This document shows positions 1-5,130 of a stretch of DNA of 5,278 bases, piece after piece (the first letter of the stretch is position 1; every line of letters begins with the position of its first letter). The stretch lies in IMG/VR virus record IMGVR_UViG_2541047904_000002; one strand, 5' to 3'. The translations under genes were made by a program, and so were the position numbers. The stretch comes from a virus. Lineage: Duplodnaviria > Heunggongvirae > Uroviricota > Caudoviricetes. The notes under the pieces are model-generated. The model was not told the DNA's origin, did no database searches, and saw only the letters and a program-made list of their open reading frames with translations.

Positions 1-387
1 GTGACCGTCACGCTTTCTGAACTGTCAGCCCTGCAGCGTATTGAGCATCTCGCCCTGATGAAACAGCAGGCAGAACAGGCGGAGTCAGACAGCAACCGGC
101 AGGTTACTGTGGAAGACGCCATCAGAACCGGTGCTTTTGTGGTGGCGATGTCCCTGTGGCATAACCATCCGCAGAAGACAAAGCAGCCTTCCATGAATGA
201 AGCCGTTAAACAGATTGAGCAGGAAGTGCTTACCACCTGGCCCGCGGAGGCAATTTCTCATGCTGAAAACGTGGTGTACCGGCTGTCCGGTATGTATGGG
301 TTTGTGGTGAATGATGCCCCTGACCAGGCAGAGGACTCCGGGCCTGCAGAGCCTGTTTCTGCGGGAAAGTGTTCGACGGTGAGCTGA
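1..387 (+). CDS. G: Tail assembly chaperone G, 5'-partial (window begins inside the gene); ends at TGA 385-387
   Basis: Open frame 1 from the window edge, 128 aa shown. Translation reads as lambda gpG from memory. Position directly upstream of the T frame and the tape measure gene matches the conserved G-GT-TMP arrangement of long-tailed phages. Confidence 0.9.
   Translation: MTVTLSELSALQRIEHLALMKQQAEQAESDSNRQVTVEDAIRTGAFVVAMSLWHNHPQKTKQPSMNEAVKQIEQEVLTTWPAEAISHAENVVYRLSGMYGFVVNDAPDQAEDSGPAEPVSAGKCSTVS
363..369 (+). other. Programmed -1 ribosomal frameshift slippery heptamer GGGAAAG (G frame reads G GGA AAG)
   Basis: Seen directly: GGGAAAG at 363-369, with GGA (364-366) and AAG (367-369) as codons in the G frame. 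A -1 slip re-pairs on GGG/AAA and the next codon is GTG at 369-371, which is exactly where the T open frame begins. The heptamer lies 16 nt before the G stop codon. This is the heptamer known for lambda G-T. Confidence 0.9.
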
Positions 388-803
388 GTTTTGCCCTGAA
401 ACTGGCGCGAGAGATGGGGCGACCTGACTGGCGCGCCATGCTTGCCGGGATGTCATCCACGGAGTATGCCGACTGGCACCGCTTTTACAGTACCCATTAT
501 TTTCATGATGTTCTGCTGGATATGCACTTTTCCGGGCTGACGTACACTGTGCTCAGCCTGTTTTTCAGCGATCCGGATATGCATCCGCTGGATTTCAGTC
601 TGCTGAACCGGCGTGAGGATGACGAAGAGCCTGAAGATGATGTGCTGATGCAGAAAGCGGCAGGGCTTACCGGAGGCGTCCGCTTTGACCCGGACGGAAA
701 TGAAGTTATCCCCGCTTCCCCGGATATGGCGGGCATGACGGAGGATGACGTAATGCTGATGACAGTATCAGAAGGGATCGCAGGAGGAGTCCGGTATGGC
801 TGA
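369..803 (+). CDS. T: T-frame segment of the G-T fusion tail assembly chaperone; expressed by -1 frameshift from G, not from its own start; ends at TGA 801-803
   Basis: A 144-codon open frame in the -1 frame relative to G, beginning at the codon after the slippery site. No credible independent start: the 'M' at 369 in the ORF track is GTG immediately after the slip site. Translation reads as lambda gpT from memory, with an acidic DDEEPEDD stretch. Confidence 0.88.
   Translation: MFDGELSFALKLAREMGRPDWRAMLAGMSSTEYADWHRFYSTHYFHDVLLDMHFSGLTYTVLSLFFSDPDMHPLDFSLLNRREDDEEPEDDVLMQKAAGLTGGVRFDPDGNEVIPASPDMAGMTEDDVMLMTVSEGIAGGVRYG
782..787 (+). promoter_or_regulatory. Shine-Dalgarno AGGAGG for H, 8 nt upstream of ATG 796
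   Basis: AGGAGG at 782-787, inside the 3' end of the T frame, at appropriate spacing to the H start. Confidence 0.7.
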
Positions 804-3357
804 ACCGGTAGGCGATCTGGTCGTTGATTTGAGTCTGGATGCGGCCAGATTTGACGAGCAGATGGCCAGAGTCAGGCGTCATTTTTCCGGTACGGAAACT
901 GATGCGAAAAAAACAGCGGCAGTCGTTGAACAGTCGCTGAGCCGACAGGCGCTGGCTGCACAGAAAGCGGGGATTTCCGTCGGGCAGTATAAAGCCGCCA
1001 TGCGTATGCTGCCTGCACAGTTCACCGACGTGGCCACGCAGCTTGCAGGCGGGCAAAGCCCGTGGCTGATCCTGCTGCAACAGGGTGGTCAGGTTAAGGA
1101 CTCCTTCGGCGGGATGATCCCCATGTTCAGGGGGCTTGCCGGTGCGATCACCCTGCCGATGGTGGGGGCCACCTCGCTGGCGGTGGCGACCGGTGCGCTG
1201 GCGTATGCCTGGTATCAGGGTAACTCAACCCTGTCCGATTTCAACAAAACGCTGGTCCTTTCCGGCAATCAGGCGGGACTGACGGCAGATCGTATTCTGG
1301 CCCTGTCCAGAGCCGGGCAGGCGGCAGGGCTGACGTTTAACCAGACCAGCGAGTCACTGACGGCGCTGGTGAATGCCGGTGTGCGTGGTGGTGAGCAGTT
1401 TGAGGCGATCAGCCAGAGTGTGGCGCGTTTCTCCTCTGCATCCGGCGTGGAGGTGGACAAGGTCGCTGAAGCCTTCGGGAAGCTGACCACAGACCCGACG
1501 TCGGGGCTGACAGCGATGGCACGCCAGTTCCATAACGTAACGGCGGAGCAGATTGCGTATGTTGCTCAGTTGCAGCGTTCCGGCGATGAAGCCGGGGCAT
1601 TGCAGGCGGCGAACGAGGCCGCAACGAAAGGGTTTGATGACCAGACCCGCCGCCTGAAAGAGAACATGGGCACGCTGGAAACCTGGGCAGACAGGACAGC
1701 ACGGGCATTCAAATCCATGTGGGATGCGGTGCTGGATATTGGTCGTCCTGATACCGCTCAGGAGATGCTGATTAAGGCAGAGGCTGCGTTTAAGAAAGCG
1801 GACGACATCTGGAATCTGCGCAAGGATGATTATTTTGTTAACGATGAAGCGCGGGCGCGTTACTGGGATGATCGTGAAAAGGCCCGTCTTGCGCTTGAAG
1901 CCGCCCGAAAGAAGGCTGAACAGCAGAGTCAACAGGACAAAAATGCGCAGCAGCAGAGCGATACCGAAGCATCACGGCTGAAATATACCGAAGAGGCGCA
2001 GAAGGCTTACGAACGCCTGCAGACGCCGCTGGAGAAATATACCGCCCGTCAGGAAGAACTGAACAAGGCACTGAAAGACGGGAAAATCCTGCAGGCAGAT
2101 TACAACACGCTGATGGCGGCGGCGAAAAAGGATTATGAAGCGACGCTGAAAAAGCCGAAACAGTCCGGCGTGAAGGTGTCTGCGGGCGATCGTCAGGAAG
2201 ACAGTGCTCATGCTGCCCTGCTGACGCTTCAGGCTGAACTCCGGACGCTGGAGAAGCATGCCGGAGCAAATGAGAAAATCAGCCAGCAGCGCCGGGATTT
2301 GTGGAAGGCGGAGAGTCAGTTCGCGGTACTGGAGGAGGCGGCGCAACGTCGCCAGCTGTCTGCACAGGAGAAATCCCTGCTGGCGCATAAAGATGAGACG
2401 CTGGAGTACAAACGCCAGCTGGCTGCACTTGGCGACAAGGTTACGTATCAGGAGCGCCTGAACGCGCTGGCGCAGCAGGCGGATAAATTCGCACAGCAGC
2501 AACGGGCAAAACGGGCCGCTATTGATGCGAAAAGCCGGGGGCTGACTGACCGGCAGGCAGAACGGGAAGCCACGGAACAGCGCCTGAAGGAACAGTATGG
2601 CGATAATCCTCTGGCGCTGAATAACGTCATGTCAGAGCAGAAAAAGACCTGGGCGGCTGAAGACCTGCTTCGCGGGAACTGGATGGCAGGCCTGAAGTCC
2701 GGCTGGAGTGAGTGGGAAGAGAGTGCCACGGACAGTATGTCGCAGGTTAAAAGTGCTGCCACGCAGACCTTTGATGGTATTGCGCAGAATATGGCGGCGA
2801 TGCTGACCGGCAGTGAACAGAACTGGCGCAGCTTCACCCGTTCCGTGCTGTCCATGATGACAGAAATTCTGCTTAAGCAGGCAATGGTGGGGATTGTCGG
2901 GAGTATCGGCAGCGCTATTGGCGGGGCTGTTGGTGGCGGCGCATCCGCGTCAGGCGGTACAGCCATTCAGGCCGCTGCGGCGAAACTCCATTTTGCAACC
3001 GGAGGATTTACGGGAACCGGCGGCAAATATGAGCCAGCGGGGATTGTTCACCGTGGTGAATTTGTCTTCACGAAGGAGGCAACCAGCCGGATTGGCGTGG
3101 GAAATCTCTACCGGCTGATGCGCGGCTATGCCACCGGCGGTTATGTCGGTGGCACCGGAAGTCCGGCGCAAATGCGGCGTTCAGAGGGTATCAGGTTTGA
3201 GCAGAACAACAACGTGGTGATTCAGAACGACGGTACGAATGGTCTGCCAGGTCCACAGATGATGAAGGCGGTGTATGACATGGCCCGCAAGGGTGCCCGT
3301 GATGAAATTCAGGCACAGATGCGCGATGGTGGTCTGTTCTCCGGAGGTGAACGATGA
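796..3357 (+). CDS. H: Tail tape measure protein H, 853 aa
   Basis: A 2562-nt ORF that overlaps the T stop by 8 nt (ATGGCTGA). The protein has a hydrophobic N-proximal segment (about aa 104-140), a long A/E/K/Q/R-rich central region typical of an extended helix (about aa 320-600), and a Gly/Ala-rich hydrophobic segment (about aa 683-742). Length and sequence read as lambda gpH from memory. Confidence 0.97.
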   Translation: MAEPVGDLVVDLSLDAARFDEQMARVRRHFSGTETDAKKTAAVVEQSLSRQALAAQKAGISVGQYKAAMRMLPAQFTDVATQLAGGQSPWLILLQQGGQVKDSFGGMIPMFRGLAGAITLPMVGATSLAVATGALAYAWYQGNSTLSDFNKTLVLSGNQAGLTADRILALSRAGQAAGLTFNQTSESLTALVNAGVRGGEQFEAISQSVARFSSASGVEVDKVAEAFGKLTTDPTSGLTAMARQFHNVTAEQIAYVAQLQRSGDEAGALQAANEAATKGFDDQTRRLKENMGTLETWADRTARAFKSMWDAVLDIGRPDTAQEMLIKAEAAFKKADDIWNLRKDDYFVNDEARARYWDDREKARLALEAARKKAEQQSQQDKNAQQQSDTEASRLKYTEEAQKAYERLQTPLEKYTARQEELNKALKDGKILQADYNTLMAAAKKDYEATLKKPKQSGVKVSAGDRQEDSAHAALLTLQAELRTLEKHAGANEKISQQRRDLWKAESQFAVLEEAAQRRQLSAQEKSLLAHKDETLEYKRQLAALGDKVTYQERLNALAQQADKFAQQQRAKRAAIDAKSRGLTDRQAEREATEQRLKEQYGDNPLALNNVMSEQKKTWAAEDLLRGNWMAGLKSGWSEWEESATDSMSQVKSAATQTFDGIAQNMAAMLTGSEQNWRSFTRSVLSMMTEILLKQAMVGIVGSIGSAIGGAVGGGASASGGTAIQAAAAKLHFATGGFTGTGGKYEPAGIVHRGEFVFTKEATSRIGVGNLYRLMRGYATGGYVGGTGSPAQMRRSEGIRFEQNNNVVIQNDGTNGLPGPQMMKAVYDMARKGARDEIQAQMRDGGLFSGGER
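3343..3347 (+). promoter_or_regulatory. Shine-Dalgarno GGAGG for M, 6 nt upstream of ATG 3354
   Basis: GGAGG at 3343-3347 within the last codons of H. The M start overlaps the H stop as ATGA. Confidence 0.7.
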
Positions 3358-3683
3358 AGACCTTCCGCTGGAAAGTGAAACCCGGTATGGATGTGGCTTC
3401 GGCCCCTTCCGTCAGGAAAGTGCGCTTTGGTGATGGCTGTTCCCAGCGAGCGCCTGCCGGGCTGAATGCCAACCTGAAAACGTACAGCGTGACGCTTTCT
3501 GTCCCCCGTGAGGAGGCCACGGTACTGGAGTCGTTTCTGGCTGAGCACGGGGGCTGGAAGGCCTTTCTGTGGACGCCGCCTTATGGGTACCGGCAGATAA
3601 AGGTGACCTGCGCAAAATGGTCGTCGCGGGTCAGTATGCTGCGTGTTGAGTTCAGCGCAGAGTTTGAACAGGTGGTGAACTGA
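3354..3683 (+). CDS. M: Minor tail (tail tip assembly) protein M, 109 aa
   Basis: ORF with ATGA start/stop overlap with H and TGATG stop/start overlap with L. The 109-aa translation reads as lambda gpM from memory. Confidence 0.93.
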   Translation: MKTFRWKVKPGMDVASAPSVRKVRFGDGCSQRAPAGLNANLKTYSVTLSVPREEATVLESFLAEHGGWKAFLWTPPYGYRQIKVTCAKWSSRVSMLRVEFSAEFEQVVN

Positions 3684-4381
3684 TGCAGGATATCCGGCAG
3701 GAAACATTGAATGAATGCACCCGTGCGGAGCAGTCGGCCAGCGTGGTGCTCTGGGAAATCGATCTGACAGAGGTCGGTGGAGAACGTTATTTTTTCTGTA
3801 ATGAGCAGAACGAAAAAGGTGAGCCGGTCACCTGGCAGGGGCGACAGTATCAGCCGTATCCCATTCAGGGGAGTAGTTTTGAACTGAATGGCAAAGGCAC
3901 CAGTACGCGCCCCACGCTGACGGTTTCTAACCTGTACGGTATGGTCACCGGGATGGTGGAAGATCTGCAGAGTCTGGTCGGCGGAACGGTGGTCAGGCGT
4001 AAGGTTTACGCCCGTTTTCTGGATGCGGTGAACTTCGTCAACGGAAACAGCGACGCCGATCCGGAGCAGGAGGTGATCAGCCGCTGGCGCATCGAGCAGT
4101 GCAGCGAACTGAGTGCGGTCAGTGCCTCCTTTGTACTGTCCACACCGACGGAAACGGATGGTGCCGTTTTTCCGGGGCGCATCATGCTGGCTAATACCTG
4201 CACCTGGACCTATCGCGGTGATGAGTGCGGTTATCACGGTCCGGCGGTCGCGGATGAATATGATCAGCCGACTTCCGATATCACGAAGGATAAATGCAGC
4301 AAATGCCTGAGCGGCTGTAAGTTTCGCAATAACGTCGGCAACTTTGGCGGCTTCCTTTCCATTAACAAACTTTCGCAGTAA
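3683..4381 (+). CDS. L: Minor tail (tail tip) protein L, 232 aa, with C-terminal cysteine cluster
   Basis: ORF starting at the ATG that overlaps the M stop by 1 nt. Translation reads as lambda gpL from memory. Cysteines at residues 173, 182, 205, 208 and 212 cluster in the C-terminal 60 residues. Confidence 0.95.
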   Translation: MQDIRQETLNECTRAEQSASVVLWEIDLTEVGGERYFFCNEQNEKGEPVTWQGRQYQPYPIQGSSFELNGKGTSTRPTLTVSNLYGMVTGMVEDLQSLVGGTVVRRKVYARFLDAVNFVNGNSDADPEQEVISRWRIEQCSELSAVSASFVLSTPTETDGAVFPGRIMLANTCTWTYRGDECGYHGPAVADEYDQPTSDITKDKCSKCLSGCKFRNNVGNFGGFLSINKLSQ

Positions 4382-4386
4382 ATCCC

Positions 4387-5130
4387 ATGACAGAGACAGA
4401 ATCAGCGATTCTGGCGCATGCCCGGCGATGTGCGCCAGCGGAGTCGTGCGGCTTCGTGGTGAGAGCGCCGGAGGGGGAAAGATATTTTCCCTGCGTGAAT
4501 ATCTCCGGTGAGCCGGAGGCGTATTTCCGGATGGCTCCGGAGGACTGGCTGCAGGCAGAGATGCAGGGTGAGATTGTGGCGCTGGTCCACAGTCATCCCG
4601 GTGGTCTGCCCTGGCTGAGTGAGGCCGACCGGCGGCTGCAGGTGCAGAGTGATTTGCCGTGGTGGCTGGTCTGCCGGGGGGCGATTCATAAGTTCCGCTG
4701 TGTGCCGCATCTCACCGGGCGGCGCTTTGAGCACGGGGTGACGGACTGTTACACGCTGTTCCGGGACGCTTACCATCTGGCGGGGATTGAGATGCCGGAC
4801 TTTCATCGTGAGGATGACTGGTGGCGTAACGGCCAGAATCTCTATCTTGATAATCTGGAGGCCACAGGGCTGTATCAGGTGCCGTTGTCAGCGGCGCAGC
4901 CGGGCGATGTGCTGCTGTGCTGCTTTGGTTCATCGGTGCCGAATCATGCCGCTATTTACTGTGGTGACGGCGAGCTGCTGCACCATATTCCTGAACAACT
5001 GAGTAAACGAGAGAGGTATACCGACAAATGGCAGCGACGCACACACTCCCTCTGGCGTCACCGGGCATGGCGCGCATCTGCCTTTACGGGGATTTACAAC
5101 GATTTGGCCGCCGCATCGACCTTCGTGTGA
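4387..5130 (+). CDS. K: Tail tip assembly protein K, 247-aa long form: N-terminal JAB/MPN (JAMM) domain plus C-terminal NlpC/P60 domain. Alternative in-frame start at 4531 would give 199 aa.
   Basis: ORF begins 5 nt after the L stop. A complete JAMM motif is visible: E19 in ESCGF, then H68-S-H70-x7-S78-x2-D81 (HSHPGGLPWLSEAD). NlpC/P60-like residues are C121 in DCYTLF and H187 and H199 in GDVLLCCFGSSVPNHAAIYCGDGELLHH. No obvious Shine-Dalgarno precedes 4387, whereas GGAGG at 4515-4519 precedes the in-frame ATG at 4531. Confidence 0.88.
   Translation: MTETESAILAHARRCAPAESCGFVVRAPEGERYFPCVNISGEPEAYFRMAPEDWLQAEMQGEIVALVHSHPGGLPWLSEADRRLQVQSDLPWWLVCRGAIHKFRCVPHLTGRRFEHGVTDCYTLFRDAYHLAGIEMPDFHREDDWWRNGQNLYLDNLEATGLYQVPLSAAQPGDVLLCCFGSSVPNHAAIYCGDGELLHHIPEQLSKRERYTDKWQRRTHSLWRHRAWRASAFTGIYNDLAAASTFV
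4515..4519 (+). promoter_or_regulatory. Internal Shine-Dalgarno-like GGAGG 11 nt upstream of in-frame ATG 4531 within K
   Basis: GGAGG at 4515-4519. ATG 4531 corresponds to Met49 of the long K frame and, as I recall, to the start used in the classical 199-aa lambda K annotation. Confidence 0.45.

What the first reader, a model, noticed from the sequence alone, without database searches (positions are those of the whole stretch)
363..803. G-T programmed -1 frameshift: slippery heptamer GGGAAAG at 363-369
T has no start of its own. Its frame opens at the codon directly after a textbook X XXY YYZ heptamer placed 16 nt before the G stop, so T can only be made as a G-T fusion (...A-G-K then V-F-D-G-E-L...). 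This recoding event is conserved across long-tailed phages and sets the G to GT ratio needed for tape-measure-directed tail assembly. An annotation pipeline would miscall T as a separate GTG-initiated gene.
Basis: partly seen in the sequence, partly recalled or inferred. Interest (0 to 1): 0.5.

Follow-up and report, generated by a model that had tools for sequence, protein, structure and literature searches.

The report
Phage lambda G-T tail frameshift site
This is the long-known lambda-type programmed -1 ribosomal frameshift that makes the tail assembly chaperone fusion gpGT from genes G and T; it is real and correctly read, but ordinary.

Summary
GGGAAAG lies at 363-369, in phase (G_GGA_AAG) with the 5'-truncated G reading frame. 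The G stop (TGA 385-387) begins 16 nt after the heptamer's last base. The -1 frame then runs 144 codons to TGA 801-803, overlapping the start of the tape measure gene H (ATG 796).

The window is the G-T-H-M-L-K tail module of a lambdoid phage or prophage. It is 98.9% identical to phage ev017. In the first 1 kb it is 99.7% identical to phage 21, and lambda differs at 38 of 830 aligned bases. Positions 346-408 are base-for-base identical to lambda, where this frameshift was shown experimentally (about 4%; G:GT about 30:1).

In 332 related loci an in-phase N_NNA_AAG is always kept (GGGAAAG, AAAAAAG or GGAAAAG). The GTG that pipelines use as the "T start" is present in only 83. No T start candidate has a Shine-Dalgarno match above background.

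One correction: the -1 frame opens at 324, not directly after the heptamer.

Verdict: supported and already known. Matching DNA occurs in 3,709 of 5,426 complete E. coli genomes. Interest is low.

The parts
1..387 (+). Gene G (tail assembly chaperone gpG). It is 5'-truncated by the window edge (first 12 codons missing); stop TGA 385-387.
   Evidence: PF06894 Phage_TAC_2 2e-49, profile positions 14-125. TIGR01674 phage_lambda_G 8e-55. Aligns with lambda G and phage 21 G.
363..369 (+). Slippery heptamer G_GGA_AAG, in phase with G; the site of the -1 tandem slip (Gly-Lys in both frames).
   Evidence: Identical to lambda's documented site (PMC3296357 Table 1; PMC7618472). In-phase N_NNA_AAG is kept in 332 of 332 located relatives.
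369..803 (+). T segment, read in the -1 frame and translated only as the C-terminal part of gpGT. The frame is open from 324; stop TGA 801-803. The fusion CDS would be join(<1..369,369..803).
   Evidence: PF06223 Phage_tail_T 2.8e-14. TIGR01715 phage_lam_T 2.1e-55. Phage 21 record carries the joined CDS. No Shine-Dalgarno match before GTG369, ATG414, ATG438 or ATG450.
378..446 (+). Predicted downstream RNA structure. An outer stem (378-384 with 440-446) starts 8 nt after the heptamer and encloses a GC-rich hairpin (403-418 with 423-438). Its role as a stimulator is not established for this sequence.
   Evidence: In the window it is not more stable than synonymous recodings (z -0.36).
796..3357 (+). 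Gene H (tail tape measure protein, 853 aa), the client of the gpG/gpGT chaperones. Its ATG overlaps the end of T by 8 nt and follows a strong Shine-Dalgarno sequence (GGAGGAG).
   Evidence: PF06791 1e-70 and PF09718 2e-21. Anti-SD duplex -10.3 kcal/mol.

Best explanation
The site is the lambda-type G-T programmed -1 ribosomal frameshift.

Mechanism. Ribosomes translating G reach G_GGA_AAG with tRNA-Gly on GGA in the P site and tRNA-Lys(mnm5s2UUU) on AAG in the A site. In a few percent of passages both tRNAs slip back one base and re-pair with GGG and AAA. Translation then continues in the -1 frame (GTG TTC GAC ...), bypasses the G stop 16 nt downstream, and yields gpGT (...SAGK-VFDGELSF...). 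Unshifted ribosomes terminate and yield gpG.

Function. The G parts of both proteins coat the tape measure protein gpH. The T part of the rare gpGT recruits the major tail protein gpV. The fixed slip frequency therefore sets the roughly 30:1 G:GT ratio needed for tail assembly. Neither protein ends up in the virion.

Basis. Shown here: the anatomy, the homology, sequence identity with lambda's signal, and conservation of the shift site in relatives. Taken from experiments on lambda, not shown for this sequence: that the slip occurs, its frequency, and the chaperone mechanism.
For: - The heptamer is in phase, and the -1 ORF of 144 codons begins at its last base.
- G and T match the lambda G and T families at equivalog level.
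- The gene order G-T-H-M-L-K is lambda's.
- Positions 346-408 are identical in the window, lambda and phage 21.
- The phage 21 record, 99.7% identical over the first 1 kb, annotates the joined GT CDS.
- In 332 of 333 relatives located, an in-phase shift site ending in A_AAG sits at the same place: GGGAAAG 136, GGAAAAG 164, AAAAAAG 32. The -1 frame continues at least 112 codons in all of them. This holds although the G C-terminal tail just upstream is poorly conserved.
- The codon at heptamer base 7 is GTG in only 83 of 332 loci and a non-start codon in the other 249.
- Anti-SD pairing before the T start candidates is -4.3 to -1.9 kcal/mol (median of all windows -3.4), against -10.3, -10.8 and -7.2 for H, M and L.
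- About 0.025 in-phase heptamers are expected by chance in the open overlap.
- Literature: the lambda G/GT slippery sequence is GGGAAAG, with about 96% of ribosomes staying in the 0 frame (PMC3296357). A 30:1 ratio is crucial, and the G and T parts bind gpH and gpV (PMC5009743). tRNA-Lys thiolation tunes the shift (PMC7618472).
Against: There is no direct protein evidence for this particular sequence. No downstream stimulatory structure is supported in the window: z is -1.74 against dinucleotide shuffles and -0.36 against synonymous recodings. The signal therefore rests on the heptamer alone, as far as can be seen here. A GTG is present at 369, and conserved in-frame ATGs lie at 438 and 450, so low-level independent initiation cannot be excluded from sequence alone. 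The 332 loci are highly redundant: they give 72 distinct 108-nt segments in roughly 6-9 clades.
Confidence: 0.96

Rival explanations
1. T is an ordinary separate gene that starts at GTG 369 (or at an internal ATG such as 414 or 438) and makes free gpT. The heptamer would be incidental.
For: RefSeq lambda and a PGAP-annotated E. coli prophage call T as a separate CDS from this GTG. Other records start T at internal ATGs. The ORF lister also gives GTG 369 as a possible start.
Against: There is no Shine-Dalgarno match above background before any candidate start. GTG is replaced by GTC, GCC, GCA, GCG, GCT or GTT in 249 of 332 relatives. The first start-like codon in the -1 frame varies from 0 to 23 codons downstream, while the in-phase A_AAG is invariant. 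Published lambda work describes gpGT, made by the frameshift, as the product that carries the T domain (PMC5009743, PMC3296357).
Confidence: 0.02
2. The G-T fusion arises by transcriptional slippage of RNA polymerase on the A run, giving mRNAs with one base more or fewer, rather than by ribosomal slippage.
For: Some relatives carry a longer A run at the site (AAAAAAG, six A). Slippage-prone homopolymers are used for similar purposes in other systems (PMC5009743).
Against: The window has only three A's at the site. That is too short for productive polymerase slippage according to established knowledge, which was not tested here. The conserved feature across clades is the phase-specific N_NNA_AAG, not run length. 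Published data link the shift to tRNA-Lys modification, a translational effect (PMC3296357).
Confidence: 0.01
3. The heptamer is a chance occurrence in a degraded prophage, and neither the frameshift nor T is functional here.
For: Matching DNA is widespread in E. coli chromosomes (3,709 of 5,426 genomes), and many prophages are defective.
Against: All six ORFs of the module are intact and match their families strongly. The window is 98.9% identical over its full length to phage ev017, a record in the phage collection. A chance in-phase heptamer is expected about 0.025 times.
Confidence: 0.01

Closest known systems
Bacteriophage lambda G/GT programmed -1 frameshift (Levin, Hendrix and Casjens 1993, as cited in PMC5009743 and PMC3296357)
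   Same: The heptamer G_GGA_AAG is the same, and 63 nt around it (346-408) are identical. The distance to the G stop, the junction peptide, the protein families and the position upstream of tape measure gene H are also the same.
   Different: There are only scattered substitutions elsewhere: 38 of 830 aligned bases in G-T differ from lambda, by my count. These include several amino-acid changes in the G tail and in T. Nothing differs in the signal itself.
Conserved tail assembly chaperone frameshift of long-tailed dsDNA phages (Xu, Hendrix and Duda 2004, as cited in PMC5009743 and PMC10885494)
   Same: Two overlapping ORFs lie between the major tail gene and the tape measure gene. The second is reached by a -1 shift at a slippery sequence near the end of the first, giving a minor fusion product.
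   Different: That class is defined by synteny and recoding, often without sequence similarity. Here there is also direct, near-identical homology to the founding member.
Lambdoid relatives with variant shift sites (phi80, mEp237, Fels-1, mEp460: G_GAA_AAG; Stx1/Stx2 phages: A_AAA_AAG)
   Same: The G and T families, the in-phase A_AAG and the long -1 ORF are the same.
   Different: The P-site codon differs. G_GAA_AAG is not a perfect X_XXY_YYZ, and in Fels-1 and mEp460 the G stop is 4 nt rather than 16 nt downstream. These relatives also have a downstream fold more stable than synonymous recodings (z -2 to -3.2). The window does not.
E. coli dnaX -1 frameshift (A_AAA_AAG with an upstream Shine-Dalgarno-like element and a downstream stem-loop); comparison from my own knowledge
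   Same: Both are -1 tandem slips in E. coli with tRNA-Lys on AAG in the A site.
   Different: dnaX shifts at about 50% and depends on flanking stimulators. Here no upstream SD-like element is seen by eye in the bases just before the heptamer, and no significant downstream structure was found. That fits a low-efficiency shift.

Membership tests
Lambda-type G/GT tail assembly chaperone frameshift | The upstream ORF is homologous to gpG. | tested here: met
   PF06894 2e-49; TIGR01674 equivalog 8e-55, score 184.5 against cutoff 74.45.
Lambda-type G/GT tail assembly chaperone frameshift | The overlapping -1 ORF is homologous to gpT. | tested here: met
   PF06223 2.8e-14; TIGR01715 equivalog 2.1e-55, score 185.8 against cutoff 77.35.
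Lambda-type G/GT tail assembly chaperone frameshift | An in-phase slippery heptamer X_XXY_YYZ lies near the 3' end of G, inside the stretch where the -1 frame is open. | tested here: met
   G_GGA_AAG at 363-369. The -1 frame is open over 324-803 and the G stop is at 385-387.
Lambda-type G/GT tail assembly chaperone frameshift | The pair lies between the major tail protein gene and the tape measure gene. | tested here: met
   H (PF06791 and PF09718) starts at 796. The V gene lies outside the window but directly precedes G in phage 21, lambda and an E. coli prophage that are about 95 to 99.8% identical to the window in this region.
Lambda-type G/GT tail assembly chaperone frameshift | The downstream ORF lacks its own translation initiation signals. 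| tested here: met
   Anti-SD pairing before the candidate starts is at background level. The GTG is not conserved: 83 of 332 loci. This is sequence inference only.
Lambda-type G/GT tail assembly chaperone frameshift | The shift site is conserved in diverged homologues. | tested here: met
   332 of 332 located loci keep an in-phase N_NNA_AAG, across 72 distinct sequences.
Lambda-type G/GT tail assembly chaperone frameshift | A fusion protein is produced at a few percent and is required for tail assembly. | not testable with these tools
   Shown for lambda, whose signal is identical over 346-408 (PMC5009743, PMC3296357). Not shown for this sequence.
Canonical stimulated -1 PRF (heptamer + 5-9 nt spacer + stable downstream stem-loop or pseudoknot) | A downstream RNA structure is more stable or more conserved than expected. 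| tested here: inconclusive
   A stem starting 8 nt after the heptamer is predicted and shows some covariation across clades. In the window its stability is ordinary: z -1.74 against dinucleotide shuffles and -0.36 against synonymous recodings.

The most novel reading that the evidence does not exclude
Within this one family, shift-site quality and downstream RNA structure may trade off. Members with the imperfect site G_GAA_AAG (phi80, mEp237, Fels-1 and mEp460 types) carry a downstream fold clearly more stable than their protein sequence requires. Lambda-type members such as this window, with the perfect G_GGA_AAG, do not. The conserved stem that starts 8 nt after the heptamer (378-384 with 440-446, enclosing 403-418 with 423-438) would then be a tunable stimulator that keeps the G:GT ratio constant as the heptamer drifts. 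I could not find such an element described for lambda in the papers I could read.
Probability: 0.2. Interest if true: 0.3.

Novelty: already known. Interest (0 to 1): 0.06.

Why it matters
It matters mainly for annotation. The correct product is a joined G-T CDS made by ribosomal slippage. RefSeq lambda and PGAP-annotated E. coli prophages still list T as a free-standing GTG gene, and other records start T at arbitrary internal ATGs. Biologically it is the founding example of the tail-chaperone frameshift that fixes the gpG:gpGT ratio, so finding it in one more lambdoid prophage adds nothing new. The only possible added value is the side observation that relatives with weaker heptamers have stronger downstream folds.

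Tried and rejected
- Independent initiation of T. Rejected on the Shine-Dalgarno scan and on non-conservation of the GTG.
- A downstream stimulatory structure in the window. Single-sequence folds and a synonymous-recoding null give no support for the window itself. The consensus fold and pair counts on 11 and 72 sequences are suggestive only, because few clades are independent and the region encodes a conserved peptide.
- An upstream SD-like stimulator as in dnaX. None is evident by eye in the bases just upstream of the heptamer (GAGCCTGTTTCTGC); this was not formally tested.
- Solved structures for gpGT by sequence search: none found.
- The primary lambda papers. Xu et al. 2013 (PMC3762263) is not held, and Levin et al. 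1993 was not found. Statements about lambda experiments therefore rest on reviews and on Maynard et al. 2012. That paper's text misprints the heptamer as GGGTTTG, but its Table 1 gives GGGAAAG.
- The first IMG/VR scan with the window's T protein returned only relatives at least 95% identical. They were uninformative for conservation, so three further scans with diverged T proteins were used.

Full report
**What is in the window.** The 5,278 bases carry, all on the + strand:
- a 5'-truncated ORF at 1-387;
- an overlapping ORF in the -1 frame that ends at 803;
- an 853-aa ORF at 796-3357;
- three further ORFs at 3354-3683, 3683-4381 and 4387-5130.

Pfam assigns these to lambda gpG (PF06894, 2e-49), gpT (PF06223, 2.8e-14), the lambda-type tape measure protein (PF06791 and PF09718), gpM, gpL, and gpK with JAB plus NlpC/P60 domains. 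NCBIfam equivalog models confirm G (TIGR01674, 8e-55) and T (TIGR01715, 2.1e-55).

Over its full length the window is 98.9% identical to Escherichia phage ev017 and 97.8% to phage 21. In the first 1 kb it is 99.7% identical to both, and lambda differs at 38 of 830 aligned bases, by my count. The same DNA is found in 3,709 of 5,426 complete E. coli genomes, at a median of two places per genome. The window is therefore the G-T-H-M-L-K tail module of a common lambdoid phage or prophage.

**Check of the observation.**
- GGGAAAG is at 363-369.
- The G frame reads GCG GGA AAG TGT TCG ACG GTG AGC TGA, so the heptamer is in phase as G_GGA_AAG. The G stop is at 385-387, 16 nt from the last heptamer base to the first stop base.
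- After a -1 slip the reading is GGG AAA GTG TTC GAC GGT GAG CTG.
- The -1 frame then continues for 144 codons to TGA 801-803 and overlaps the ATG of H (796) by 8 nt.

The -1 frame is open from 324, 39 nt upstream of the heptamer. What begins at base 369 is the first start-like codon of that frame, a GTG. The window also lacks the first 12 codons of G.

The heptamer is unlikely to be there by chance. The other genes of the window have only 2 in-phase X_XXY_YYZ heptamers in about 1,430 in-phase positions, and none is of the X_XXA_AAG class. Roughly 0.025 would be expected in the 61-nt stretch where both frames are open. A second GGGAAAG at 4475 in K is out of phase.

**Identity with the experimentally studied signal.** In the three-way alignment of the window, lambda and phage 21, positions 346-408 are identical in all three. 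That is 17 nt before the heptamer to 39 nt after it. In lambda:
- GGGAAAG is the documented G/GT slippery sequence, and about 96% of ribosomes stay in the 0 frame (PMC3296357, Table 1 and text).
[quoted passage not shown] Neither protein is in the virion (PMC5009743).
- Thiolation of tRNA-Lys(UUU) tunes the shift on G_GGA_AAG (PMC7618472).
- G_GGA_AAG is listed among the highly shift-prone heptamers in E. coli (PMC5009743).

The GenBank record of phage 21 already annotates the joined GT CDS as the lambda GT frameshift product.

**Comparative test: frameshift versus separate initiation.** I fetched diverged relatives from annotated phage records and from IMG/VR with four T-protein queries. The site could be located in 332 of the 333 sequences examined (the window plus 332 fetched loci).
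- All 332 have an in-phase site ending in A_AAG at the homologous position: GGGAAAG 136, GGAAAAG 164, AAAAAAG 32.
- All have a G stop 16 nt or 4 nt downstream.
- All have a -1 frame that continues for 112-152 codons.
- In most, the -1 frame opens only 9-63 nt upstream of the site.

In an alignment of 11 clade representatives, AAAG is invariant although the G C-terminal tail just upstream is among the least conserved parts of the region.

By contrast, the codon that starts at heptamer base 7 is GTG in only 83 of the 332. It is GTC, GCC, GCA, GCG, GCT or GTT in the rest. The first start-like codon in the -1 frame lies anywhere from 0 to 23 codons downstream.

In the window, pairing of the 16S anti-SD sequence with the 20 nt before GTG369, ATG414, ATG438 and ATG450 is -4.3 to -1.9 kcal/mol. 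The median of all windows is -3.4. The values for H, M and L are -10.3, -10.8 and -7.2.

These data favour recoding and speak against a free-standing T gene. One caveat applies: the loci are redundant, giving 72 distinct 108-nt segments in a handful of clades.

**Annotation.**
- RefSeq lambda NC_001416 lists T as a separate CDS starting at the GTG.
- A PGAP-annotated E. coli chromosome 99.8% identical to the window does the same, at the position equivalent to window 369.
- Other records start T at various internal ATGs.

**Stimulatory elements.** The 91 nt after the heptamer fold to -34.9 kcal/mol, with z = -1.74 against dinucleotide shuffles. A window spanning the site has z = 0.18.

A consensus fold of 11 representatives predicts two elements: a stem at 378-384 with 440-446, which starts 8 nt after the heptamer, and an enclosed GC-rich hairpin at 403-418 with 423-438. 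Pair counts exceed the shuffled and slid controls, and this holds on 72 distinct sequences. However, few independent clades contribute, the structure was derived from the same alignment, and the region encodes the conserved ...LAREMGRPDWRAML... peptide.

Against a null that keeps the T amino-acid sequence and resamples synonymous codons, the results differ by clade:

| Type | z against synonymous recodings |
|---|---|
| Window / lambda | -0.36 |
| phi80 | -3.24 |
| mEp237 | -3.06 |
| PhiR12_2 | -2.34 |
| Fels-1 | -2.16 |
| mEp460 | -1.97 |

For this window, then, nothing beyond the heptamer is supported as part of the signal. That fits a low-efficiency shift. My recollection, which I could not verify, is that the original lambda study also found no simple downstream structure. 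The contrast with the relatives that carry an imperfect heptamer is recorded as a side observation.

**Mechanism and confidence.** The best explanation is a tandem -1 slip of tRNA-Gly (GGA to GGG) and tRNA-Lys (AAG to AAA) at 363-369 in a few percent of ribosomes. This gives gpGT alongside the major product gpG, and the ratio is fixed by the slip frequency.

The anatomy, homology, identity with lambda's signal and conservation are shown here. The occurrence of the slip, its frequency and the chaperone mechanism are inferred from lambda experiments. Confidence is 0.96.

The rivals each get 0.02 or less:
- separate initiation of T;
- transcriptional slippage, since only three A's are present;
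- a non-functional relic, since all ORFs are intact and a near-identical phage record (ev017) is in the phage collection.

**Novelty and score.** This is the founding, long-documented case of the tail-chaperone frameshift, in a sequence whose signal is identical to lambda's. It is already known. Interest is about 0.06, mainly as a reminder of a persistent annotation error.

Noticed in passing
window 370-470 compared with L087, L089, L090, L091 at 690-790: Relatives with the imperfect shift site G_GAA_AAG (phi80, mEp237, Fels-1, mEp460 types) have a downstream fold more stable than synonymous recodings of the same peptide (z -2.0 to -3.2). The lambda-type window with the perfect G_GGA_AAG does not (z -0.36). 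PhiR12_2, which has a perfect heptamer, also scores -2.34, so the pattern is not clean. It may still reflect a trade-off between heptamer quality and stimulator strength.
   Followed up: partly
window 4387-5130 (about 4518-4524) compared with L002 5134-5290: K is a 247-aa ORF here, with a complete JAB domain plus NlpC/P60. The lambda reference NC_001416 has one base fewer at the equivalent of window ~4521 (GAGGCGTAT against GAGGCTAT). There the N-terminal part is out of frame and K is annotated as 199 aa from an internal ATG. A newer lambda record (LC730321.1, 48,503 bp) has the uninterrupted version, as do other relatives. This is probably an error or a strain difference in the old reference.
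   Followed up: partly
window 4367-4389: The ATG of the long K ORF (4387) has no Shine-Dalgarno complementarity at all (+0.7 kcal/mol). It lies 5 nt after the L stop, so K may depend on translational coupling to L.
   Followed up: no
window 796-803, 3354-3357, 3681-3685: The gene junctions are tightly coupled. The H ATG lies 8 nt inside the end of T (ATGGCTGA). The M ATG overlaps the H stop as ATGA. The L ATG overlaps the M stop as TGATG. This is typical of translationally coupled tail genes.
   Followed up: no
window 3099-3105 and 4475-4481: Other heptamers are present. An in-phase G_GGA_AAT in H gives only a 31-codon -1 tail and has an A-site codon that, from my own knowledge, slips poorly in E. 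coli. A second GGGAAAG in K is out of phase. Both look like chance.
   Followed up: yes
L090 683-700 and L091 683-700: In the Fels-1 and mEp460 types the G stop lies only 4 nt after the shift site (GGAAAAG NCC TGA) instead of 16 nt. The stop codon would then sit just one codon beyond the A site when the slip occurs.
   Followed up: no
PMC3296357, Results text: The paper's running text gives the lambda slippery sequence as GGGTTTG and the lysine codons as TTG and TTT. This is an apparent complement slip. Its Table 1 gives the correct GGGAAAG.
   Followed up: yes
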